Of a stretch of DNA of 39,704 bases, positions 5,648 through 36,188 are shown piece by piece. The stretch lies in the sequence record NC_007456.1; one strand, written 5' to 3'. The DNA comes from Escherichia phage K1F. The notes under the pieces were generated by a model. That model did not search any database. It had not been told where the DNA came from and worked only from the letters and a program-made list of their open reading frames with translations. A program made the position numbers and the translations under genes. The number at the start of each line of letters is the position of its first letter. Position 1 is the stretch's first letter.

Positions 5648-5828
5648 ATGTATCAGAATACTATCAACTTCGAGCGCATCCGTGAACGTCAGCAGACTTG
5701 AAGGTTACATTCCTAAGGGCCGCAAGCTGAACAAGACTAAACGTGGAGGTGGTATCAAGGGTGCTTTCCGTAACGCTGAGGGCAAAGACTCTATGGTCAA
5801 CCAAGAGAAATACTTCGTAGGAGCATAA
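5648..5828 (+). other. Gene 1.1-like coding region split across two frames (17-codon ORF 5648-5701, then +1-frame basic segment KGRKLNKTKR... ending 5828)
   Basis: ATG 5648 has GGAG SD and NFE motif; downstream frame has GRKLNKTKR motif recalled from T7 gp1.1 but only a GTG start (5682). Confidence 0.4.
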
Positions 5829-7487: not shown

Positions 7488-7930
7488 CTACTTATGATAA
7501 TATGATTATCAAGCTAATCGATATGAACGATGGTAATCCAGACCATTTATATAACTGTTCCTTCAATTGTGCTGGAGTTCCTTGTAACATCTGCCCCGCT
7601 AAGGATGATGACGATATGACCTTAGGTGAAATCCGAGCGATGGACCCGCGTAAATCTCATCTGAATAAACTTGAGGTAACTCCTACAGATGACCAGCCTT
7701 CCACTGAATCAATCGAAGGTGTCACTAAGCCTTCCCATTACATGCTGTTCGACGACATTGAGGCTATCGAAGTGATTGCCCGTTCAATGACTCGTGAGCA
7801 GTTCAAAGGGTACTGCTTAGGGAACATCCTTAAGTACCGCCTACGCGCTGGTAAGAAAGTCAGAACTTGCTTACTTAGAGAAAGCCAGGGCGAAAGTTGG
7901 ATTCTATGGGGAACTGTACGAGAAACATAA
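7484..7930 (+). CDS. gp1.7-like protein (DUF3310-like motifs); C-terminus appears to continue in +1 frame to 7952
   Basis: Motifs KPSHY...IEAIEV...FKGYCLGNILKYRLRAGKK; after AAGAAAG (7853-7859) the +1 frame reads SELAYLEKARAKVGFYGELYEKHKDKCYDA*. Confidence 0.6.
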   Translation: MTTYDNMIIKLIDMNDGNPDHLYNCSFNCAGVPCNICPAKDDDDMTLGEIRAMDPRKSHLNKLEVTPTDDQPSTESIEGVTKPSHYMLFDDIEAIEVIARSMTREQFKGYCLGNILKYRLRAGKKVRTCLLRESQGESWILWGTVRET

Positions 7931-8503: not shown

Positions 8504-8521
8504 ACTATCACTGTAGGACAG
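8499..8521 (+). promoter_or_regulatory. Phage RNAP promoter copy 4, variant (CCTAAACTATCACTGTA|GGACAG; G at -3)
   Basis: Consensus match except -3; overlaps gene 2 stop; upstream of SSB. Confidence 0.6.
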
Positions 8522-12920: not shown

Positions 12921-14936
12921 ATGTTTGACCTTAAGGATATTTGGGGTTCGGACATCGAGACCAACGGTCTCCTTGACACCGTGTCCCAGTTCCATTGTGG
13001 GGTCCTGATTAATGCCGAGTCGAATGAGACCCTTAAGTATGGGGTAGCGCCGATGGTCGGTATCGTCGGTGGCTTCAAAGAGTATGTACAGAAGGTGGAA
13101 GAAATTGCTGCAACGCCTACGGGTATGCTGGTCTTCCATAACGGTATCAACTATGACGTCCCGGCTATAGACAAGCTGAAGCGTTTGTACTTTGGGAAAC
13201 GATTTAACTTCCCGAAACACAAGATGATTGATACCTTGGTGCTGGGCCGCTTGATGTATCCCAACATTAAGTTCTCAGACATGGGAGCGGTGAAAGCTGG
13301 TCGTCTGCCACCTAAGATGATGGGACGCCAGTCTCTTGAGGCTTGGGGCTATCGTCTCGGTGAGATGAAAGGTGAATACAAACACGATTACGTTGCCAAA
13401 TGCAAGGCTGAAGGTATCGAATATAAGGCTGGGGACGAATGGTTGTTCCCGTCTCAGGAGATGCTGGACTATAACGTTCAAGACGTTGTGGTCACACTGG
13501 CGTTGTTCAAGAAGTTCCTGACTGACAAGTATTACTTCCAGTCTGAACAGTTCGCTTTCGAACAGATTTATGCGTTGCGTCTGGAACATGATGCTGCGTG
13601 GACCTGTGCTAAGATGGAACGTAACGGCTATCCAATGAACACAGAGATGGTCGAAGGCTTATATCGTGAACTCACCGTCAAACGTGCAGAGTTGCTGGAC
13701 AAGCTGCGTTCGACTTTCGGTAGCTGGTACGCACCAAAGGGAGGCAAGGAGTTCTTCAGGCATCCACGGACAGGTAAGGACCTTCCGAAGTATCCGAGGG
13801 TCGTGTATCCTAAGGTTGGTGGCATCTTTAAGAAGCCGAAGAACAAAGCTCAACGATTAGGTCTTGAACCTTGTGAACGCGATACGCGAGACACGATGGA
13901 GGGAGCACCATTCACACCTATCACTTACGTTGAGTTTAATCCGGGAAGCGGGGACCACTTAGCGAAAGTTCTGATGGAGCGTGGCTGGGAGCCTGTGGAC
14001 TTCACTGACACCGGGAAACCTGTAGTCGATGACGAGACGTTAGAACATGTTAAGTTACCAGACGCAGAGGCTCAGGCTTGCGTAGAGCTGGTCCGTGAGT
14101 ATCTGGTAGTCCAGAAGCGCATAGGTCAGGCTGCTGAAGGTAAGAACGCATGGTTGAAACTTGTAGGGCCAGACGGACGTATGCACGGTTCAATCAACCC
14201 ATGTGGTGCAGTAACCGGACGTGCTACCCATAGTTCACCAAACATGGCTCAGGTCCCGGCTAACGGTGCTCCGTATGGTGAGACTTGCCGTGGTGCTTTC
14301 GGTGCAGCTTGGAACAAGACGGATGGTAAGCCAGACCCTTGGATTCAAGTGGGTGTGGATGCTTCAGGTCTTGAGCTTCGTTGTCTGGGGAACCGAGCGG
14401 CTCCGTTTGATGGTGGTGCCTATGCGAAGACTGTGGTAGAAGGTGACATCCACTGGGCCAACGCAGTAAACGCTGGGTTAGCACCTAACGTCCCACGCGA
14501 TAAGTCGAACCACGACCATGATGCTTTCCGTAATAACGCTAAGACGTTCATCTATGCGTTCCTGTATGGTGCAGGGGCCGCTAAGATTGGACTGATAGTA
14601 GGCGGTGGTAAGAAGGAAGGTTCAGCTCTCATGAAGAAATTCATTGAGGGTACACCAGCCATCAAAGACCTCAGGGAAGCTGTGAGTAATACGTTAATCT
14701 CTGAGTCCAAATGGGTAGACGGTGAGAATATCGTGAAGTGGAAACGCCGCTGGCTTAAAGGCTTGGATGGTCGACGCATCCACATCCGGTCTCCACACTC
14801 AGCACTTAACGCCTTACTTCAAGGTGATGGTGCGGTAGTCTGTAAGCACTGGATTGTTGAGACAGAACGTATGCTCGAAGAGGCCGGGTATGTCCACGGC
14901 TGGGAAGGAGACTTCGCGTACATGGCATGGGTGCAT
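12921..14936 (+). CDS. 5: DNA polymerase (T7 gene 5 homolog), exon 1 (672 codons, ends ...YMAWVH)
   Basis: 3'-5' exo motif DIETNGL; ...FHNG.NYDVPA...EAWGYRLGEMKGEYK...DYNVQDVVVT...; ORF track stops at TAA 14937-14939, the first intron codon. Confidence 0.9.
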
Positions 14937-15534
14937 TAACATCATGGTGCACATTAAATCTGGTGAACTCGGTGAACTCCTAATGGGACAATACCGAGCC
15001 AAGCCATAGGGAGGATGTATGAGAGGCAAGAAGTTAATTCTTGAGGCCACTGAGACTGGCTGCATAATCCCTACGTCACATAAATTGAATCAGGATGGAT
15101 ACTTCCGAAAGAGGACTAACGGTGTCCTTGAGATGTATCATAGAACTGTATGGATTAAAGCTAATGGTCCAATACCTGAAGGTTTCGAAGTAGACCACAA
15201 GTGTCGTAATAGAGCTTGTTGCAACGTCGAACATCTACAAGTATTAGACCGTGACTCACACTTAGTCAAGACCAACCAAGAGCGATACGCTGCTAGGAAG
15301 CTAGAAGCACGAGACTACTGGGTAGAGACTGGGTGTACAGGAACGAAGTTAGCCGAAGTATTCAATGTGTCGTTCTCAGCCGCCTGTGGGTGGATTAGAG
15401 AGTGGAAGGCGTAGAGACTATCCGAAAGGAGTAGGGCCGTGGGTGAGATTCCCACGTAACCCGAAGCGCCAGACAGTCACCTCAAAGACTGATGATATAG
15501 TCCGACACTTCCAGTAATGGGAGAATACAGAAAG
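14937..15534 (+). mobile_element. Group I-type intron (598 bp) in DNA polymerase gene, carrying an HNH endonuclease ORF
   Basis: Exon 1 ends in U (14936), intron ends in G (15534); P1-like pairing of exon GUGCAU (14931-14936) with GUGCAC (14947-14952); exons join in frame to give WVH|DELQIACRT. Confidence 0.7.
15019..15414 (+). CDS. HNH homing endonuclease (131 aa) within the intron
   Basis: HNH motif EVDHKCRNRACCNVEHLQV; strong SD AGGGAGGA; free-standing ORF. Confidence 0.85.
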   Translation: MRGKKLILEATETGCIIPTSHKLNQDGYFRKRTNGVLEMYHRTVWIKANGPIPEGFEVDHKCRNRACCNVEHLQVLDRDSHLVKTNQERYAARKLEARDYWVETGCTGTKLAEVFNVSFSAACGWIREWKA

Positions 15535-22179: not shown

Positions 22180-22310
22180 GCACTTTTAGCCAACCTAACG
22201 TCGCTACAGTAGCGGCTGCACCTGAAGAGGAGACTCTAACTCCTCAACAGAAAGCTGCGCGTACTCGTGCTGCGAACAGGGCCGATAAACTGGCTGAGTC
22301 CAACAACTAA
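21136..22310 (+). CDS. 10: Minor capsid protein 10B by predicted -1 frameshift at GGTTTTC (22158-22164), about 391 aa
   Basis: Heptamer G GTT TTC in 0 frame near 10A end; -1 frame stays open 48 codons (QPSGVSTFSQPNVATVAAAPEEETLTPQQKAARTRAANRADKLAESNN) to TAA 22308-22310, just before Tphi. Confidence 0.6.
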
Positions 22311-28713: not shown

Positions 28714-31700
28714 ATGGCGACTCGTGGTATTCGCAATAACAATCCGGGGAACATCCGGGTAAGTAAGGACCAATGGGAAGGAATGACTGGAGATGATGGC
28801 GCATTTGTCACTTTCGATAGTCCAGAGTCTGGCGTCCGAGCTTTAGGTAAAAACCTGCTGTCCTACGGTCGCCAAGGTTATGACTCCATCGAGAAGATCA
28901 TCAACCGATGGGCGCCTCCTAATGAGAATGACACTCAGGCTTATATTGACTCAGTGGTGGCTGCGACTGGTATCCCAGCTACCCAGAGTCTAGACCTCTC
29001 GAACCCGGACACCCTGTCTGCTCTGGCGCAAGCTATCAGCTTCCATGAGACAGGTTCCCGGTACAACCCTGAAGTATACCAACAGGGGGTCGCAAGAGCA
29101 CTCAACGGTATCAGCCCAAAGACTCCACCAGTAAGCGCTAACGTATTTGACGCACTCACGGAAGGACTCAAGGCTAAACCTAAAGTAGCTCTGGGTGAGA
29201 ACCTTCCGACCGCTGCTGGTCTGAACATTGAGGGTCAAGCACCTGAAGCTCCCAACGAATCGTTCGGTGAGATGTTCTATAAGGCTACTGGAGAGACCAT
29301 GCAGGAACGAGAGGATCGCTCTACGTGGTTCGGTTTCGGTACGGCTACAGAAGCTGAAGTGAAGAACTCTATGGTCGGCGTGGCTATCCGCGCTGGTCAG
29401 ACTGAGGACTCACTGGATGTCATTGGCGATGTGTTCAACCCAACCCGATGGAATAACCATAAGTGGTCTCGTGAGGAGCTGGACCAGATTCGTAACGCTG
29501 GGGTTCTGCCTCAGTATTACGGGGTCATTACTGGTGGCTCCCCTCAGAACCTGACCGAGCTTATTAACTTGGCGCTTGAGAACCAGAAGTTTGACCAAGA
29601 GAAGGCCAAGGCCGGGACTGGCGCTCAACTGGCGGCTGGTGTGATTGGTGCTGGCGTGGACCCTCTGACCTACGTTCCTATTGCTGGGCAGGTAGGTAAA
29701 GGTGGGAAGCTAGTCAACAAGATGTTCACTGTGGCTGCTCAGTCTGGTGCTCTGGCTGGGGCATCCGAGATTGCTCGAACCTCAGTTGCTGGTGGGGACG
29801 CTCATGTGGCTGAGGCAATTATGGGCGGTGCTCTCTTCGGTGGGGGAATGACAGCTATCGGGGACGCTATCGGCAAGGCCTTAGGCAAGTCAACCAACGA
29901 GTTCGCCGGGCCAGCCACACGTCTGGAAGCCCGTGAGACTGCACGTAATGTTGATGGTCAGGACCTGTCGCGTATGCCAATCCGTGAAGGAGAGGAGACC
30001 TTTAGTCACCAAGGCGTTAAGTTCGCTGACGTGCCGAATGAGCCGGGAAGTGTACGATTAGAAGACGGTTCAATCCTGATTGGTGAGAACCCTCTGAACC
30101 CTAAGACACGTCAAGTCTTTGACGAAGTGATTGAGCCAGAACGTGCCGCTGCTGGTGTGAACCTTGGCGGACTTACCGAGATTGGTCTGAAGCTGCTTCG
30201 GTCTGAGAACCCGGAGATTCGTGGTGTAGCTACTGACTTAGTGCGTTCACCGACTGGTATGCAGTCTGGGGCCTCAGGTAAAATCGGGACCACTGCGTCT
30301 GACGTATTCGAGAGACTTCGTGCTGTAGACCATCGGTTCTACAACGACATCGACGATGCTGTTACTGAGGCACTCAAGGACCCTTACTTCCAGACAGCAT
30401 TCTGGCGAGACTCTGGCGCATTCCGTCAAGACATCTATCAGCGTGTGTCTATGGCTATCGAAGATGGTAGTGGGAACCTGAAGGCTGAACTGACTCCGGG
30501 AGAACTGAAAGTCTATGACCTGCTGAAGAACCAGTTCGACGCCAAGCGTGAGATGATGGAGAACCCAGCTATGTTTGGTCGGCCAGACGCTCAGTCTATC
30601 TTTCCGGGCAGCCGCTTCAAGGGAACCTACGTCCCGCATGTGTATAGCAAACAGATGAAGGAGCTGTACATCAAGGAGCTTGGGAGTCCAGAGGCGTTGC
30701 AGGAGGCCATCAAGAAGTCATGGTTGACCAGCTATGCGTCTCGACCTGAAGTCAAGAAACGCGTGGACGAGGCACTCTTAGAGGCTGACCCTACGTTGAC
30801 CCCAGAAGGACTTGCTGCTGCGGTCGATAAGTACGCCAACGATAAGGCTTACGGTATCTCTCACACCGAGCAGTTCGAACGTTCATCCGTAATGGAAGAG
30901 AACATCAACGGTCTGGTTGGTCTGGAGAACAACAGCTTCCTTGAGGCTCGTAACCTGTTCGATAGCGATATGTCAATCGTCCTACCTAACGGTCAGACCT
31001 TCAGTGTCAACAACCTGCGTGAGTGGGACATGGACAAGATTGTCCCGGCCTACAACCGTCGAATTAATGGCGATATTGCTATCATGGCTGGTACAGGCAA
31101 AACCACGAAGGACATGAAGGACTTGGTTGAGACCATGATGAACAAGGCTGGGGATGACGGTAAGTTGAAAGGTGAAGTATCTACCTTACGTGACACCTTG
31201 AAGATTCTAACTGGTCGTGCTCGACGTGATGGTGCTGATGATGCAGCCTTCGCTACCGTGATGCGCACAATGACAGACCTATCGTTCTTCGCTAAGAATG
31301 CCTACATGGGTGTTCAGAACTTAACGGAGATTGGTGGTATGCTGGCTCGTGGCAACGTTCGTGCAATGCTGCATGGAGTCCCAATTTTCCGTGACCTAGC
31401 CTTCCGTAACAAGAAGGTTGGGGCCTCAGAGATTAAGGACCTGCACAATGTTATCTTCGGTAAGGAACTGGATGACTCAATCCGTCCGTCTAAACAGGAT
31501 GTCATTGACCGTCTGCGATCTTACAGTGACCTAGGTCGTGGTACAGCTACAGCTCTGGGGACTGCCAAGTATTACACTGGCGAACTTGCAGTACGCTCTC
31601 CGTTCACTAAAGTCCTCAACGGTACGACCAACTACCTGTTAGATGCTGGACGTCAGGGCTTCCTGTCTGACATCGTGGAGCATAGCCTGACTGGTAGTAA

Positions 31701-32601
31701 GCGTAAGTTCGATGACCGCTGGCTGAAGACCGCTGGTATCTCTGACGAGCAGTGGAAGGGCATTAAGTCCCTCATCCGTGAGTCAGTGACGCGTGGTCCA
31801 GACGGGAAGTACACCATCAAGGATAAGAAGGCGTTCAGTCAGGACCCAAGGGCTATGGACCTGTGGCGTATGGGTGACACCATCGCTGATGAAACGTTAC
31901 TCCGTCCTCATAAGCTGTCCAACATGGACGCCAAGGCTTATGGTCCTATCGCTAAGACTGTCCTTCAGTTTAAGAACTTCGTCATCAAGTCCATCAATGG
32001 GCGAACCATGCGTACCTTCTATAACGCCACGAAGAACAACCGAGCGATTGACGCTGCACTATCGACCGTGATGTCTATGGGTCTGGCTGGTATCTACTAC
32101 ATGGCTCAGGCGCACGTCAAGGCTTATGCTATGCAGGATGGTCGAGACCGTGACTACCTTAAGCAAGCTCTGGACCCGACGATGATTGGTTATGCGGCTC
32201 TGTCCCGTAGTTCACATCTGGGTGGCCCACTTGGGGTAGCTAACATTCTAGGTGGCATCGCTGGGTATGAGGACACTAAGATGCTCCGTTCGTCTATCCT
32301 ACCTCGTTCGCCTACAGAGAAGCCTGAACGTGCCATCACGTTTGGTGCAGCTACAAGTGACCCTGTGATGAATGTTGTTGGTAACTTCTTGGAGCAGGTT
32401 CCAGCTTTCGGATATGCTGCTAACGTTGGCGTTTCTGCTTACAACTTGGCTGGCTACCTCAAGGCTGATACTCGTGTCAACGAGCGTGACTACATGACCG
32501 GGATGTATAATACGTTCCGTGAACTGGTTCCGAACGACCCCATTACCCAGAAGCTGTTGCTTGGAATGTTTGAGGAGCAAGGCATCCACATCAAGGACTA
32601 A
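28714..32601 (+). CDS. 16: Internal virion protein D (T7 gene 16 homolog), 1295 aa; N-terminal ~140 aa divergent from T7
   Basis: Collinear with T7 gp16 from about residue 190 (...FGFG.A.EAE...RLEARETARN...DLVRSPTGMQSGASGK...NPAMFG...GTYVPHVY...); N-terminus starts MATRGIRNNNPGNIR. Confidence 0.93.
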   Translation: MATRGIRNNNPGNIRVSKDQWEGMTGDDGAFVTFDSPESGVRALGKNLLSYGRQGYDSIEKIINRWAPPNENDTQAYIDSVVAATGIPATQSLDLSNPDTLSALAQAISFHETGSRYNPEVYQQGVARALNGISPKTPPVSANVFDALTEGLKAKPKVALGENLPTAAGLNIEGQAPEAPNESFGEMFYKATGETMQEREDRSTWFGFGTATEAEVKNSMVGVAIRAGQTEDSLDVIGDVFNPTRWNNHKWSREELDQIRNAGVLPQYYGVITGGSPQNLTELINLALENQKFDQEKAKAGTGAQLAAGVIGAGVDPLTYVPIAGQVGKGGKLVNKMFTVAAQSGALAGASEIARTSVAGGDAHVAEAIMGGALFGGGMTAIGDAIGKALGKSTNEFAGPATRLEARETARNVDGQDLSRMPIREGEETFSHQGVKFADVPNEPGSVRLEDGSILIGENPLNPKTRQVFDEVIEPERAAAGVNLGGLTEIGLKLLRSENPEIRGVATDLVRSPTGMQSGASGKIGTTASDVFERLRAVDHRFYNDIDDAVTEALKDPYFQTAFWRDSGAFRQDIYQRVSMAIEDGSGNLKAELTPGELKVYDLLKNQFDAKREMMENPAMFGRPDAQSIFPGSRFKGTYVPHVYSKQMKELYIKELGSPEALQEAIKKSWLTSYASRPEVKKRVDEALLEADPTLTPEGLAAAVDKYANDKAYGISHTEQFERSSVMEENINGLVGLENNSFLEARNLFDSDMSIVLPNGQTFSVNNLREWDMDKIVPAYNRRINGDIAIMAGTGKTTKDMKDLVETMMNKAGDDGKLKGEVSTLRDTLKILTGRARRDGADDAAFATVMRTMTDLSFFAKNAYMGVQNLTEIGGMLARGNVRAMLHGVPIFRDLAFRNKKVGASEIKDLHNVIFGKELDDSIRPSKQDVIDRLRSYSDLGRGTATALGTAKYYTGELAVRSPFTKVLNGTTNYLLDAGRQGFLSDIVEHSLTGSKRKFDDRWLKTAGISDEQWKGIKSLIRESVTRGPDGKYTIKDKKAFSQDPRAMDLWRMGDTIADETLLRPHKLSNMDAKAYGPIAKTVLQFKNFVIKSINGRTMRTFYNATKNNRAIDAALSTVMSMGLAGIYYMAQAHVKAYAMQDGRDRDYLKQALDPTMIGYAALSRSSHLGGPLGVANILGGIAGYEDTKMLRSSILPRSPTEKPERAITFGAATSDPVMNVVGNFLEQVPAFGYAANVGVSAYNLAGYLKADTRVNERDYMTGMYNTFRELVPNDPITQKLLLGMFEEQGIHIKD

Positions 32602-32619
32602 ACTATCACTATAGGAAAC
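32597..32619 (+). promoter_or_regulatory. Phage RNAP promoter copy 10 (ACTAAACTATCACTATA|GGAAAC)
   Basis: Consensus match; overlaps gene 16 stop; upstream of tail spike gene. Confidence 0.75.
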
Positions 32620-32665: not shown

Positions 32666-35600
32666 ATGTCCACGATTACACAATTCCCTTCAGGAAACAC
32701 TCAGTACAGGATTGAGTTCGACTACCTAGCCAGAACGTTTGTTGTTGTTACGCTGGTGAATAGCTCTAACCCTACCCTGAACCGTGTACTGGAAGTTGGT
32801 CGAGATTACCGATTCCTTAACCCAACGATGATTGAGATGTTGGTGGACCAATCAGGTTTCGACATCGTTCGTATTCACCGTCAGACTGGGACTGACTTAG
32901 TGGTAGACTTCAGGAATGGCTCAGTGTTGACAGCTAGTGACCTGACCACTGCAGAGCTTCAGGCTATCCATATTGCAGAAGAAGGTCGAGACCAAACGGT
33001 TGACTTAGCGAAGGAATATGCCGATGCTGCTGGTAGCTCTGCTGGCAACGCTAAGGATAGCGAGGACGAAGCACGACGAATCGCTGAGAGTATCAGGGCA
33101 GCTGGTCTAATTGGTTATATGACCCGTCGCTCCTTCGAGAAAGGCTACAACGTTACAACATGGAGCGAGGTCCTGCTATGGGAAGAGGATGGTGATTATT
33201 ACCGCTGGGATGGTACGCTTCCAAAGAACGTTCCTGCTGGTTCAACTCCTGAAACTTCCGGTGGGATTGGATTAGGTGCGTGGGTTAGTGTTGGTGATGC
33301 TGCTTTAAGAAGTCAGATTTCAAACCCGGAAGGGGCAATACTCTACCCTGAATTACATAGAGCACGCTGGCTTGATGAAAAAGATGCTCGTGGTTGGGGT
33401 GCTAAAGGGGATGGTGTCACTGATGATACAGCAGCGTTAACGAGCGCATTAAACGACACACCGGTTGGACAAAAGATTAATGGCAATGGGAAGACATATA
33501 AGGTCACATCCCTGCCTGACATTAGTCGCTTCATCAACACTCGTTTCGTTTATGAGCGCATTCCCGGACAACCTCTTTATTATGCCTCTGAAGAATTTGT
33601 TCAGGGTGAGCTATTCAAAATAACGGACACCCCTTATTACAATGCGTGGCCTCAGGATAAAGCGTTCGTATATGAGAATGTGATATATGCACCTTACATG
33701 GGTAGCGATCGTCATGGTGTTAGTCGTCTGCATGTATCATGGGTTAAGTCTGGTGATGATGGTCAAACATGGTCTACTCCAGAGTGGTTAACTGATCTGC
33801 ATCCAGATTACCCTACAGTGAACTATCATTGTATGAGTATGGGTGTATGTCGCAACCGTCTGTTTGCCATGATTGAAACACGTACCTTAGCCAAGAACGC
33901 ATTAACCAATTGTGCATTGTGGGATCGCCCCATGTCTCGTAGCCTGCATCTTACTGGTGGTATCACTAAAGCTGCAAATCAGCGATATGCAACAATACAT
34001 GTACCAGACCACGGACTATTCGTGGGTGATTTTGTTAACTTCTCTAATTCTGCGGTAACAGGTGTATCCGGTGATATGACTGTTGCAACCGTAATAGATA
34101 AGGACAACTTCACGGTTCTTACACCCAACCAGCAGACTTCAGATTTGAATAACGCTGGAAAGAATTGGCACATGGGTACTTCTTTCCATAAGTCTCCATG
34201 GCGTAAGACAGATCTTGGTCTAATCCCTAGTGTCACAGAGGTGCATAGCTTTGCTACTATTGATAACAATGGCTTTGCTATGGGCTATCATCAAGGTGAT
34301 GTAGCTCCACGAGAAGTTGGGCTTTTCTACTTCCCTGATGCTTTCAATAGCCCATCTAATTATGTTCGTCGTCAGATACCATCTGAGTATGAACCAGATG
34401 CGTCAGAGCCGTGCATCAAGTACTATGACGGTGTATTATACCTTATCACTCGTGGCACTCGTGGTGATAGACTAGGTAGCTCTTTGCATCGTAGTAGAGA
34501 CATAGGTCAGACTTGGGAGTCACTGAGATTTCCACATAATGTTCATCATACTACATTACCTTTTGCTAAAGTAGGGGATGACCTTATTATGTTTGGTTCA
34601 GAACGTGCAGAAAATGAATGGGAAGCAGGTGCACCAGATGATCGTTACAAGGCATCTTATCCTCGCACCTTCTATGCACGCTTGAATGTAAACAATTGGA
34701 ATGCAGATGATATTGAATGGGTTAACATCACTGACCAGATTTATCAGGGCGGAATAGTTAACTCAGGTGTAGGTGTTGGTTCGGTAGTTGTGAAGGATAA
34801 TTACATCTACTACATGTTTGGTGGAGAGGACCATTTTAACCCATGGACATATGGAGATAACTCAGCGAAAGACCCATTCAAATCGGATGGTCACCCCTCG
34901 GATTTGTATTGCTACAAAATGAAGATTGGCCCAGACAATCGTGTTTCCAGAGATTTCAGATATGGTGCTGTACCCAACAGAGCTGTTCCCGTGTTTTTTG
35001 ATACGAATGGGGTTCGCACTGTTCCTGCGCCAATGGAATTTACAGGGGATTTGGGTTTAGGTCATGTGACCATTAGAGCCAGCACCAGTAGTAACATTCG
35101 CTCTGAAGTTTTAATGGAAGGTGAATATGGGTTTATCGGGAAATCTATACCGACTGATAACCCGGCAGGGCAGCGCATCATATTTTGCGGGGGTGAAGGC
35201 ACCAGTTCAACGACTGGCGCACAGATTACGCTATATGGTGCAAATAACACCGACTCAAGGCGAATAGTTTACAACGGAGATGAGCATCTATTTCAGAGTG
35301 CTGATGTTAAGCCTTATAACGATAACGTCACTGCGCTTGGTGGGCCTAGCAACCGTTTCACCACTGCATACCTCGGAAGCAACCCTATTGTTACTTCTAA
35401 CGGGGAGAGGAAAACAGAGCCGGTAGTTTTTGATGATGCTTTCCTGGATGCCTGGGGTGACGTTCACTACATCATGTACCAGTGGTTAGATGCTGTTCAA
35501 CTGAAAGGCAATGATGCTCGTATTCACTTCGGGGTTATTGCTCAGCAAATTCGTGATGTATTCATTGCACATGGTCTGATGGATGAAAACAGTACGAATT

Positions 35601-35860
35601 GTCGTTATGCTGTTCTGTGCTATGACAAGTATCCACGGATGACCGATACGGTATTTTCGCACAATGAAATCGTTGAACACACTGACGAGGAGGGTAATGT
35701 CACTACTACGGAAGAACCTGTGTACACCGAGGTGGTTATTCACGAAGAGGGTGAGGAGTGGGGTGTTCGGCCTGACGGAATTTTCTTTGCTGAAGCCGCT
35801 TATCAGAGAAGAAAACTGGAAAGAATCGAAGCCAGACTTTCTGCTCTTGAACAGAAGTAA
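32666..35860 (+). CDS. 17: Tail spike: T7 gp17-like N-terminal anchor + large catalytic region + C-terminal intramolecular chaperone domain; probable endosialidase
   Basis: N-terminus FDYLARTFVVVTLVNS...DYRF resembles T7 gp17; C-terminal 153 aa (from S911: TSNGERK...IHFGVIAQQIRDV...) is the self-cleaving chaperone-domain type; 1064 aa with Ser911 matches endoNF of phage K1F from memory. Confidence 0.9.
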   Translation: MSTITQFPSGNTQYRIEFDYLARTFVVVTLVNSSNPTLNRVLEVGRDYRFLNPTMIEMLVDQSGFDIVRIHRQTGTDLVVDFRNGSVLTASDLTTAELQAIHIAEEGRDQTVDLAKEYADAAGSSAGNAKDSEDEARRIAESIRAAGLIGYMTRRSFEKGYNVTTWSEVLLWEEDGDYYRWDGTLPKNVPAGSTPETSGGIGLGAWVSVGDAALRSQISNPEGAILYPELHRARWLDEKDARGWGAKGDGVTDDTAALTSALNDTPVGQKINGNGKTYKVTSLPDISRFINTRFVYERIPGQPLYYASEEFVQGELFKITDTPYYNAWPQDKAFVYENVIYAPYMGSDRHGVSRLHVSWVKSGDDGQTWSTPEWLTDLHPDYPTVNYHCMSMGVCRNRLFAMIETRTLAKNALTNCALWDRPMSRSLHLTGGITKAANQRYATIHVPDHGLFVGDFVNFSNSAVTGVSGDMTVATVIDKDNFTVLTPNQQTSDLNNAGKNWHMGTSFHKSPWRKTDLGLIPSVTEVHSFATIDNNGFAMGYHQGDVAPREVGLFYFPDAFNSPSNYVRRQIPSEYEPDASEPCIKYYDGVLYLITRGTRGDRLGSSLHRSRDIGQTWESLRFPHNVHHTTLPFAKVGDDLIMFGSERAENEWEAGAPDDRYKASYPRTFYARLNVNNWNADDIEWVNITDQIYQGGIVNSGVGVGSVVVKDNYIYYMFGGEDHFNPWTYGDNSAKDPFKSDGHPSDLYCYKMKIGPDNRVSRDFRYGAVPNRAVPVFFDTNGVRTVPAPMEFTGDLGLGHVTIRASTSSNIRSEVLMEGEYGFIGKSIPTDNPAGQRIIFCGGEGTSSTTGAQITLYGANNTDSRRIVYNGDEHLFQSADVKPYNDNVTALGGPSNRFTTAYLGSNPIVTSNGERKTEPVVFDDAFLDAWGDVHYIMYQWLDAVQLKGNDARIHFGVIAQQIRDVFIAHGLMDENSTNCRYAVLCYDKYPRMTDTVFSHNEIVEHTDEEGNVTTTEEPVYTEVVIHEEGEEWGVRPDGIFFAEAAYQRRKLERIEARLSALEQK

Positions 35861-35993
35861 TAAACAAAACCATTTTGCCATTAAGTTGGTGGGGTAGATG
35901 TTAGAAGGTTGTGGAGGTAGAGGCTAACTACACGCTAACCAACGTATGTAACAACTTTGGGTCACGGACGACCCGCTTTAAACTGGAGGTTTT

Positions 35994-36188
35994 ATGATTG
36001 AGTTAGACTTCAAGAATGAGGTCCTTAAAGCCTCTCCTATCGTCGGGACCGCTGCGGCTGATGGTGCCAGTCGGTTCTTCTTTGGACTCACACTGAACGA
36101 ATGGTTCTACGTTGCGGCTATCGCGTACACCGTTGTCCAAATTGGTGTGCTGGTCTACAAAACGATTAAAGGAGGTGGTAAAACATGA
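35994..36188 (+). CDS. 17.5: Holin (T7 gene 17.5 homolog), 64 aa
   Basis: ...SPIVGTAAADGASRFFFGLTLNEWFYVAAIAYTVVQIG... near-identical to T7 gp17.5 core; one TM segment; SD GGAGG. Confidence 0.85.
   Translation: MIELDFKNEVLKASPIVGTAAADGASRFFFGLTLNEWFYVAAIAYTVVQIGVLVYKTIKGGGKT

What the first reader, a model, noticed from the sequence alone, without database searches (positions are those of the whole stretch)
32666..35860. Tail spike is a chimeric probable endosialidase with a self-cleaving C-terminal chaperone domain
The first ~150 aa resemble the virion-attachment domain of T7 gp17 (FDYLARTFVVVTLVNS...), the central ~750 aa do not resemble the T7 fiber, and the last 153 aa (after Ser911, 35399-35857) look like the intramolecular chaperone domain released by autoproteolysis in endosialidases and other tail spikes. 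Length 1064 aa and cleavage at Ser911 match what I recall for endoNF of coliphage K1F, which would make the host a K1-encapsulated E. coli. This marks horizontal replacement of the receptor-binding module.
Basis: partly seen in the sequence, partly recalled or inferred. Interest (0 to 1): 0.5.

Follow-up and report, generated by a model that had tools for sequence, protein, structure and literature searches.

The report
Phage K1F endosialidase tail spike

Summary
The ORF at 32666-35860 (+) is real and encodes 1064 aa. Its DNA is 100% identical to gene 17 (endosialidase endoNF) of Escherichia phage K1F, and the whole window is a K1F genome. Residues 245/246-910 are identical to the crystal structures of the mature enzyme. 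Residues 790-1064 match the pre-cleavage structure 3gw6 apart from its engineered S911A. Pfam finds a T7 tail-fibre N-terminal domain, all four endosialidase domains and Peptidase_S74. The active-site residues, Arg897 and the Ser911/Lys916 dyad are all present. Close Kayfunavirus relatives with other enzymes are 95-96% identical in DNA up to window ~33300 (aa ~211) and again from ~35892. The endosialidase part also occurs in unrelated podo-, sipho- and myophages. This confirms a horizontally exchanged cassette.

- T7 similarity ends at aa ~116, not ~150.
- A further module (Tail_spike_N, aa 156-211) belongs to the conserved N-terminal part.
- Cleavage is before Ser911, so the released domain is 154 aa and starts at window 35396.

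Verdict: interpretation supported, already known, low interest.

The parts
32602..32619 (+). Phage-RNA-polymerase promoter-like site directly upstream of gene 17 (ACTATCACTATAGGAAAC)
   Evidence: The core ACTATCACTATAGG recurs 10 times in the window, always on the + strand, against 0.03 expected by chance. This copy lies between the gene 16 stop (32601) and the gene 17 start. Its function as a promoter is inferred by analogy with T7-type promoters and was not tested.
32666..35860 (+). Gene 17: precursor of tail spike endosialidase endoNF, 1064 aa plus stop
   Evidence: ORF confirmed. 100% DNA identity to K1F gene 17 / sia. Deposited annotation: 'precursor of gp17, endosialidase, tail spike protein'.
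32693..33010 (+). T7 gp17-like tail-attachment (anchor) domain, aa ~6/10-116
   Evidence: Pfam Phage_T7_tail covers aa 10-115, E 3.4e-16. PDB T7 gp17 N-terminus 7boz matches aa 6-116. tblastn to T7 gene 17 gives 41% identity over aa 6-113.
33131..33298 (+). Tail_spike_N module (aa 156-211), shared with CBA120 TSP1/3/4-type spikes; the last part of the conserved Kayfunavirus N-terminal block
   Evidence: Pfam PF18668 covers aa 156-211, E 4.8e-19. PDB 4oj5, 5w6h, 5w6f and 6nw9 match from aa 155. The block aa 1-211/224 is 91.5-91.9% identical in sister phages that carry other enzymes.
33299..33400 (+). Junction segment (aa 212-245), the left edge of the exchanged cassette
   Evidence: DNA identity to sister Kayfunaviruses stops at window 33298-33300. 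Endosialidases of phAPEC8 and K1-5 start aligning at aa 212 and 234.
33401..35395 (+). Mature endosialidase catalytic part (aa 246-910): N-terminal extension 246-312, six-bladed beta-propeller 313-754 with inserted beta-barrel 424-506, and stalk 757-910
   Evidence: Identical to PDB 1v0e, 1v0f, 3gvl, 3gvj, 3gvk and 3ju4 chains. Pfam End_N_terminal, End_beta_propel, End_beta_barrel and End_tail_spike all match. H350, R549, E581, R596 and R647 are present and are named as catalytic or sialic-acid-binding residues in PMC12632334.
35396..35857 (+). C-terminal intramolecular chaperone domain (aa 911-1064, 154 aa), released by autoproteolysis; Ser911 codon at 35396-35398, Lys916 codon at 35411-35413
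   Evidence: Deposited mat_peptide 'gp17-CTD' covers residues 911-1064. Pfam Peptidase_S74 covers aa 916-971. PDB 3gw6 (aa 790-1064) is identical except S911A. The S911/K916 dyad and R897 are described in PMC8326128 and are present here.
35861..35903 (+). Short 3' flank that travels with the cassette (right edge of the exchanged segment)
   Evidence: Similarity to sister Kayfunaviruses resumes only at window 35892 (L003) or 35904 (L002). The spacer 35858-35995 shows no significant RNA structure, z = -0.39, and no terminator-like site was found there.

Best explanation
This is gene 17 of coliphage K1F, encoding the tail spike endosialidase endoNF. The N-terminal ~116 aa, homologous to T7 gp17, anchor a homotrimer to the phage tail. 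A linker and a Tail_spike_N module (aa 156-211) follow. Residues 246-910 form the endo-alpha-2,8-sialidase (beta-propeller with inserted beta-barrel, then a stalk), which binds and depolymerises the polysialic-acid K1 capsule so that the phage can reach the cell surface. Residues 911-1064 are an intramolecular chaperone needed for folding and trimerisation of the stalk. Once the stalk is folded, the Ser911/Lys916 dyad, helped by Arg897, cuts the Thr910-Ser911 bond and the chaperone is released. The segment from aa ~212 to ~40 bases past the stop codon is a horizontally exchanged cassette placed on a Kayfunavirus (T7-like) backbone. What is shown here: sequence identity, domain content, presence of the functional residues, and the mosaic breakpoints. 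What is taken from the literature on this same protein: enzymatic activity, the chaperone role and self-cleavage.
For: - Identity: 100% DNA identity to K1F gene 17 in three records. Window 28166 to the end is identical to AM084414 28161-39699. The rest of the window differs from AM084414 at only 15 small sites, none in gene 17.
- Structures: the mature-enzyme crystal chains are identical over aa 245/246-910, and the pre-cleavage structure 3gw6 is identical over aa 790-1064 except S911A.
- Domains: Phage_T7_tail, Tail_spike_N, four endosialidase domains and Peptidase_S74 all score above Pfam's cut-offs.
- Residues: H350, R549, E581, R596, R647, R897, S911 and K916 are present. They are invariant in the endosialidases of K1-5, K1H and phAPEC8.
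- Deposited annotation: mature peptide 2-910 and CTD 911-1064.
- Mosaic: 95-96% DNA identity to two sister Kayfunaviruses up to window ~33300 and again from 35892-35904, with nothing detectable in between.
Against: Nothing found contradicts this. Two limits apply. No experiment can be run here, so activity and cleavage rest on published work on the identical protein. The role of aa 117-245 (linker plus Tail_spike_N) in K1F is not addressed in the papers I could read, which describe K1F gp17 as having only an anchor domain of ~140 residues.
Confidence: 0.98

Rival explanations
1. The central domain is a different kind of capsule depolymerase (for example a pectate-lyase-like beta-helix lyase or hydrolase) rather than an endosialidase.
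For: There is a weak, sub-threshold Pfam hit to Pect-lyase_RHGA_epim over aa 244-263 only (18.2 bits against a cut-off of 27). The WGAKGDGVTDD motif there is shared with the start of many beta-helix spikes, including 9vvr.
Against: That hit covers 20 residues and is below threshold. Residues 246-910 are identical to solved endosialidase structures and match all four endosialidase Pfam domains at E down to 1.8e-222.
Confidence: 0.005
2. The C-terminal 154 aa are a permanent receptor-binding or trimerisation tip that stays on the spike, not a released chaperone.
For: Some tail spikes keep their C-terminal domains. The two sister-phage spikes compared here show no similarity to this protein beyond aa 211-224, so they carry no detectable homologue of its C-terminal domain.
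Against: Peptidase_S74 matches above threshold and the Ser911/Lys916 dyad and Arg897 are present. All mature-enzyme crystal chains end at Thr910. The deposited record annotates a released CTD. PMC8326128 describes release of the ICA domain of endoNF.
Confidence: 0.01
3. The T7-like N-terminus and the endosialidase diverged together in one lineage by vertical descent, with no module swap.
For: None specific.
Against: Identity with sister Kayfunaviruses drops abruptly from 95-96% to undetectable at window ~33300 and returns just past the stop codon. Endosialidase domains 52-83% identical occur in Vectrevirus, Kagunavirus and Phapecoctavirus genomes, joined to different N-termini.
Confidence: 0.01

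Closest known systems
EndoNF (gp17) of Escherichia phage K1F; records AJ505988.2, AM084414.1, NC_007636.1; PDB 1v0e, 1v0f, 3gvj, 3gvk, 3gvl, 3ju4, 3gw6
   Same: Everything: 100% DNA identity over the 3195-base gene, the same length (1064 aa), the same domains, and the same catalytic and cleavage residues.
   Different: Nothing within the gene. Elsewhere, the window differs from AM084414 at 15 small sites before position 22286, so it is probably an independent sequencing of K1F.
Endosialidases of other K1 phages: K1-5 gp47 / K1E (Vectrevirus), K1H / 63D type (Kagunavirus siphophages), phAPEC8 / phi92 type (myophages), CUS-3 (P22-like prophage)
   Same: The catalytic part and the S74 chaperone domain are homologous (72%, 48% and 53% identity in blastp). 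All eight functional residues are conserved.
   Different: They have different N-termini and ways of attaching to the virion. K1-5 gp47 aligns only from aa 234 and has no T7-like anchor; in the literature it docks through an adaptor protein (PMC6872550).
T7 gp17 tail fibre
   Same: The N-terminal tail-attachment domain is homologous over aa 6-116 (about 41% identity). The gene sits in the same position, between gene 16 and gene 17.5.
   Different: No similarity beyond aa ~116. The T7 fibre binds lipopolysaccharide (PMC6872550). I know of no enzymatic part or released chaperone in T7 gp17, but that was not tested here.
Tail spikes of sister Kayfunaviruses (PDB 9vvr; MZ234021.1 LM33P1-type; PQ336909.1 SH4-type Salmonella Typhi phage)
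   Same: The N-terminal 211-264 aa are nearly identical and the flanking genes are the same. 9vvr also has a homologous S74 domain with Ser and Lys aligned.
   Different: Their central receptor-degrading domains are unrelated to the endosialidase.
Other Peptidase_S74 / intramolecular chaperone autocleavage domains (GA-1 gp12 neck appendage 3gud, T5 L-shaped tail fibre 4uw8, eukaryotic MyRF)
   Same: The C-terminal chaperone domain is homologous, and self-cleavage uses a Ser-Lys dyad.
   Different: The upstream passenger domains differ. In MyRF the domain stays on the membrane, and the stalk arginine equivalent to R897 is not used (PMC8326128).

Membership tests
Bacteriophage endosialidase (endo-N-acetylneuraminidase, endoN) | Beta-propeller catalytic domain with inserted beta-barrel, N-terminal extension and tail-spike stalk (Pfam PF12217, PF12195, PF12218, PF12219) | tested here: met
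   All four domains match far above Pfam's cut-offs: 738, 161, 130 and 269 bits. Residues 246-910 are identical to the solved structures.
Bacteriophage endosialidase (endo-N-acetylneuraminidase, endoN) | Active-site and sialic-acid-binding residues H350, R549, E581, R596, R647 | tested here: met
   All are present and invariant in K1-5, K1H and phAPEC8 endosialidases. They are named as key catalytic residues in PMC12632334.
Bacteriophage endosialidase (endo-N-acetylneuraminidase, endoN) | [quoted passage not shown] | not testable with these tools
   Taken from the literature on the identical protein (PMC12632334; deposited annotation).
Peptidase S74 / C-terminal intramolecular chaperone (ICA) domain | Sequence match to the Peptidase_S74 model | tested here: met
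   PF13884 covers aa 916-971 at 36.3 bits against a cut-off of 22. There is homology to 3gud, 7y5s, 6eu4 and the 9vvr C-terminal domain.
Peptidase S74 / C-terminal intramolecular chaperone (ICA) domain | Ser-Lys catalytic dyad at the cleavage site (S911, K916), plus stalk R897 | tested here: met
   The sequence reads IVT-S911-NGER-K916, and R897 is present. All three are conserved in three other endosialidases. Ser and Lys are aligned in 9vvr. Their roles are described in PMC8326128.
Peptidase S74 / C-terminal intramolecular chaperone (ICA) domain | Autoproteolytic release after trimer folding | not testable with these tools
   Indirect evidence: mature crystal chains end at Thr910, the pre-cleavage structure needed the S911A mutation, and the deposited record has separate mat_peptide features.
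T7-like gp17 tail-attachment (anchor) domain | Match to Phage_T7_tail and to the solved T7 gp17 N-terminus, in the gene-17 position | tested here: met
   PF03906 covers aa 10-115 at 59.7 bits against a cut-off of 25.2. 7boz matches aa 6-116. The gene lies between gene 16 and gene 17.5.
Escherichia phage K1F (Kayfunavirus K1F) | Near-identity of the whole genome to K1F records | tested here: met
   99.9% identity over window 1-25000, only 15 small differences in the first 28.2 kb, and zero differences from 28166 to the end.

The most novel reading that the evidence does not exclude
The only under-described part is aa ~117-245. The papers I could read present K1F gp17 as a single-spike protein with just a ~140-residue anchor. 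Yet aa 156-211 are a confident Tail_spike_N module of the kind found at the N-termini of spikes in multi-spike phages (CBA120 TSP1/3/4). The natural recombination junctions sit right after it, at aa 211, 224 and ~250-264. It could therefore be a conserved recombination 'socket', or have an unrecognised docking or binding role in K1F. A near-identical N-terminus has already been solved (PDB 9vvr), so even this may already be explained.
Probability: 0.08. Interest if true: 0.25.

Novelty: already known. Interest (0 to 1): 0.05.

Why it matters
As a discovery it does not matter, because this is the reference endosialidase. Its crystal structures, chaperone mechanism, evolution and even a full deep-mutational scan have been published. 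It is useful as a calibration point: the first-stage reader identified the protein, its host and its maturation site correctly from raw sequence alone. The breakpoint mapping gives exact window coordinates for the exchangeable cassette (~33300 to ~35900), which is the kind of boundary used in receptor-binding-protein engineering of K1F.

Tried and rejected
- **Transcription terminator or structured RNA downstream of gene 17.** The consensus scan found no terminator-like site in the spacer. The RNA fold of 35858-35995 is no better than shuffles (z = -0.39). Rfam found nothing at gathering thresholds anywhere in the window.
- **Sigma-70 promoters around the gene.** Six sites were found against 6.7 expected, so there is no signal.
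- **Primary papers.** Schwarzer 2009 (PMC2666599) and Scholl & Merril 2005 (PMC1317022) are not held. The cleavage position therefore rests on the deposited annotation and on the crystal chain ends. Identifying the window as the 39,704-bp Scholl & Merril K1F deposit is from memory only.
- **Alternative depolymerase reading.** The idea came from the weak Pect-lyase hit. I rejected it because the hit covers 20 residues and is below threshold.

Full report
**1. Observation**

The window has an ATG-to-stop ORF at 32666-35860 on the + strand encoding 1064 aa. An AAGGAGG ribosome-binding site lies a few bases upstream of the ATG. The gene sits between a 1295-aa gene-16-type internal virion protein (28714-32601) and a small lysis/holin gene (35994-36188). 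Small terminase, Rz-like and large terminase genes follow. This is the T7-type late gene order.

**2. Identity**

- Megablast of the gene against 50,697 phage records gives 100% identity over all 3195 bases to three Escherichia phage K1F records: AJ505988.2 (sia, endo-alpha-sialidase), AM084414.1 and NC_007636.1 (gene 17).
- Window 28166 to the end is identical to AM084414 28161-39699.
- The first 28.2 kb differ from AM084414 at 15 small sites only, all before 22286. Window 1-25000 is 99.9% identical to K1F.
- The window is therefore a K1F genome, 5 bases longer than AM084414. From memory, the other published K1F sequence (Scholl & Merril 2005) is 39,704 bp, which is the window's length. I could not verify this because the paper is not held.

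**3. Anatomy**

Pfam places seven domains above threshold:

| Domain | Residues |
|---|---|
| Phage_T7_tail | 10-115 |
| Tail_spike_N | 156-211 |
| End_N_terminal | 246-312 |
| End_beta_propel | 313-754 |
| End_beta_barrel (inserted in the propeller) | 424-506 |
| End_tail_spike | 757-910 |
| Peptidase_S74 | 916-971 |

- PDB chains of mature endoNF (1v0e, 3gvl and others) are identical to aa 245/246-910 and all end at Thr910.
- 3gw6, the pre-cleavage stalk plus chaperone, is identical to aa 790-1064 except Ser911Ala.
- The T7 gp17 N-terminus (7boz) matches aa 6-116.
- CBA120-type spikes (4oj5, 5w6h, 5w6f, 6nw9) match from aa 155.
- A recently solved spike, 9vvr, is almost identical over aa 1-~250 and then diverges. 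It again has a homologous S74 domain, with Ser and Lys aligned.

**4. Functional residues**

H350, R549, E581, R596, R647, R897, S911 and K916 are all present. They are invariant in the endosialidases of K1-5 (Vectrevirus), K1H (Kagunavirus) and phAPEC8 (Phapecoctavirus). PMC12632334, a deep mutational scan of this very protein, names the first five as key catalytic or sialic-acid-binding residues. It describes the architecture as an N-terminal binding domain, a central catalytic domain and a C-terminal chaperone domain that is cleaved off. PMC8326128 describes S911/K916 as the serine-lysine dyad needed for autocleavage. It says R897 of the triple beta-helix plays a key role, so that cleavage needs a correctly folded stalk, and that the domain is released afterwards.

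**5. Cleavage position**

The deposited K1F record annotates the mature peptide as residues 2-910 and gp17-CTD as residues 911-1064. This agrees with the crystal chain ends. Ser911 is therefore the first residue of the released domain, which is 154 aa (window 35396-35857).

**6. Module exchange**

- Two sister Kayfunaviruses with other enzymes were compared: MZ234021.1 (LM33P1 type) and PQ336909.1 (SH4 type, from Salmonella Typhi).
- They are 95-96% identical to the window in DNA from gene 16 through the first 633 bases of gene 17, up to window 33298-33300 (aa 211).
- No similarity is detectable after that until window 35892-35904, about 35-45 bases past the stop codon. From there, identity is 87-96%.
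- At protein level, identity is 91.5-91.9% over aa 1-224 and 1-211 and nil afterwards.
- From the other side, the endosialidases of phAPEC8, K1-5 and K1H begin to align at aa 212, 234 and 85.
- Catalytic-part homologues occur in 137 phage records spanning podo-, sipho- and myophage backbones, CUS-3 records and a Mannheimia phage.
- The exchanged cassette is therefore about window 33300-35900. The junction lies after the Tail_spike_N module, not at aa ~150.
[quoted passage not shown] The anchor/enzyme boundary has also been exploited to re-target K1F and KP32 experimentally (PMC13352976).

**7. Expression signals**

The 18-mer ACTATCACTATAGGAAAC lies at 32602-32619, directly after the gene 16 stop. 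Allowing up to 3 mismatches, it occurs 10 times in the window, always on the + strand, against 0.03 expected by chance. Nine of the ten copies keep the core ACTATCACTATAGG exactly, and the tenth has one mismatch in it. I infer it is the phage RNA polymerase promoter, by analogy with T7. No sigma-70 excess, terminator or structured RNA is associated with the gene.

**8. Verdict**

The object is the reference endosialidase itself, so it is already known and interest is low. The only part that the papers I could read leave undescribed is aa ~117-245 (linker plus Tail_spike_N). Even this has a near-identical solved homologue (9vvr).

Noticed in passing
window 14927-15524 (+), with ORF 15019-15414: The DNA polymerase gene (gene 5; first exon ORF 12921-14939) is interrupted by a group I intron. 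Rfam Intron_gpI matches over the full model at 35.7 bits, below the gathering score of 50, with E 3.2e-7. The intron carries a 131-aa HNH endonuclease ORF (Pfam HNH_3, E 7e-16). AM084414 annotates gene 5 as a two-piece join with gene 5.3 inside, so this is known. The default Rfam scan at gathering thresholds missed it.
   Followed up: partly
window 2244-22285: The window differs from K1F record AM084414 at 15 small sites. There are paired +1/-1 indels at 2244/2258, 8612/8631 and 10294/10297; unpaired single-base indels at 5699, 7858, 10112, 12631 and 15898; and substitutions at 7885, 7888, 7897 and 22285. These look like discrepancies between two independent sequencings. Several would shift reading frames in small early genes.
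   Followed up: partly
window 2479, 5557, 7188, 8504, 17182, 20003, 21002, 25326, 32602, 38857 (+): Ten copies of the 18-mer ACTATCACTATAGGAAAC (up to 3 mismatches) are present, all on the + strand, against 0.03 expected by chance. Nine keep the core ACTATCACTATAGG exactly, and the copy at 8504 has one mismatch in it. They are presumably the set of phage RNA polymerase promoters.
   Followed up: partly
public record MN510331.1 (vB_EcoP_PR_Kaz2018), compared with the window: This record has exactly the window's length (39704) and identical gene 17 coordinates (32666-35860). It aligns 1-25000 to 1-25000 in a single piece, yet identity is only 94.8-97.3%. About 5% divergence with no net indels suggests a reference-guided consensus built on a K1F scaffold.
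   Followed up: no
public records PV615262.1 and KX523699.2: 'Acinetobacter phage vB_Aba_01KA' (host listed as A. baumannii) carries an endosialidase gene 97.3% identical to this one. It is almost the same length as E. coli phage vB_Eco_1RS (39611 vs 39612 bp). 'Salmonella phage IME207' (host listed as Klebsiella) has a catalytic part 97.6% identical. The host labels look doubtful for K1-capsule-specific spikes.
   Followed up: no
public record KP137434.1 (Mannheimia phage vB_MhM_587AP1): Its 'tail fiber protein H' is 35% identical to aa ~306-876 of the endosialidase catalytic part (E 2e-99). The host is M. haemolytica serotype A2. From memory, that serotype has a polysialic-acid capsule, so this may be an endosialidase outside the Enterobacteria.
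   Followed up: no
public record M63657.1, compared with window 32666-35727: The oldest K1F endosialidase record is 99.8% identical and stops 133 bases before the true end of the ORF, yet it annotates a terminator. This is consistent with early sequencing errors that hid the C-terminal chaperone domain.
   Followed up: no
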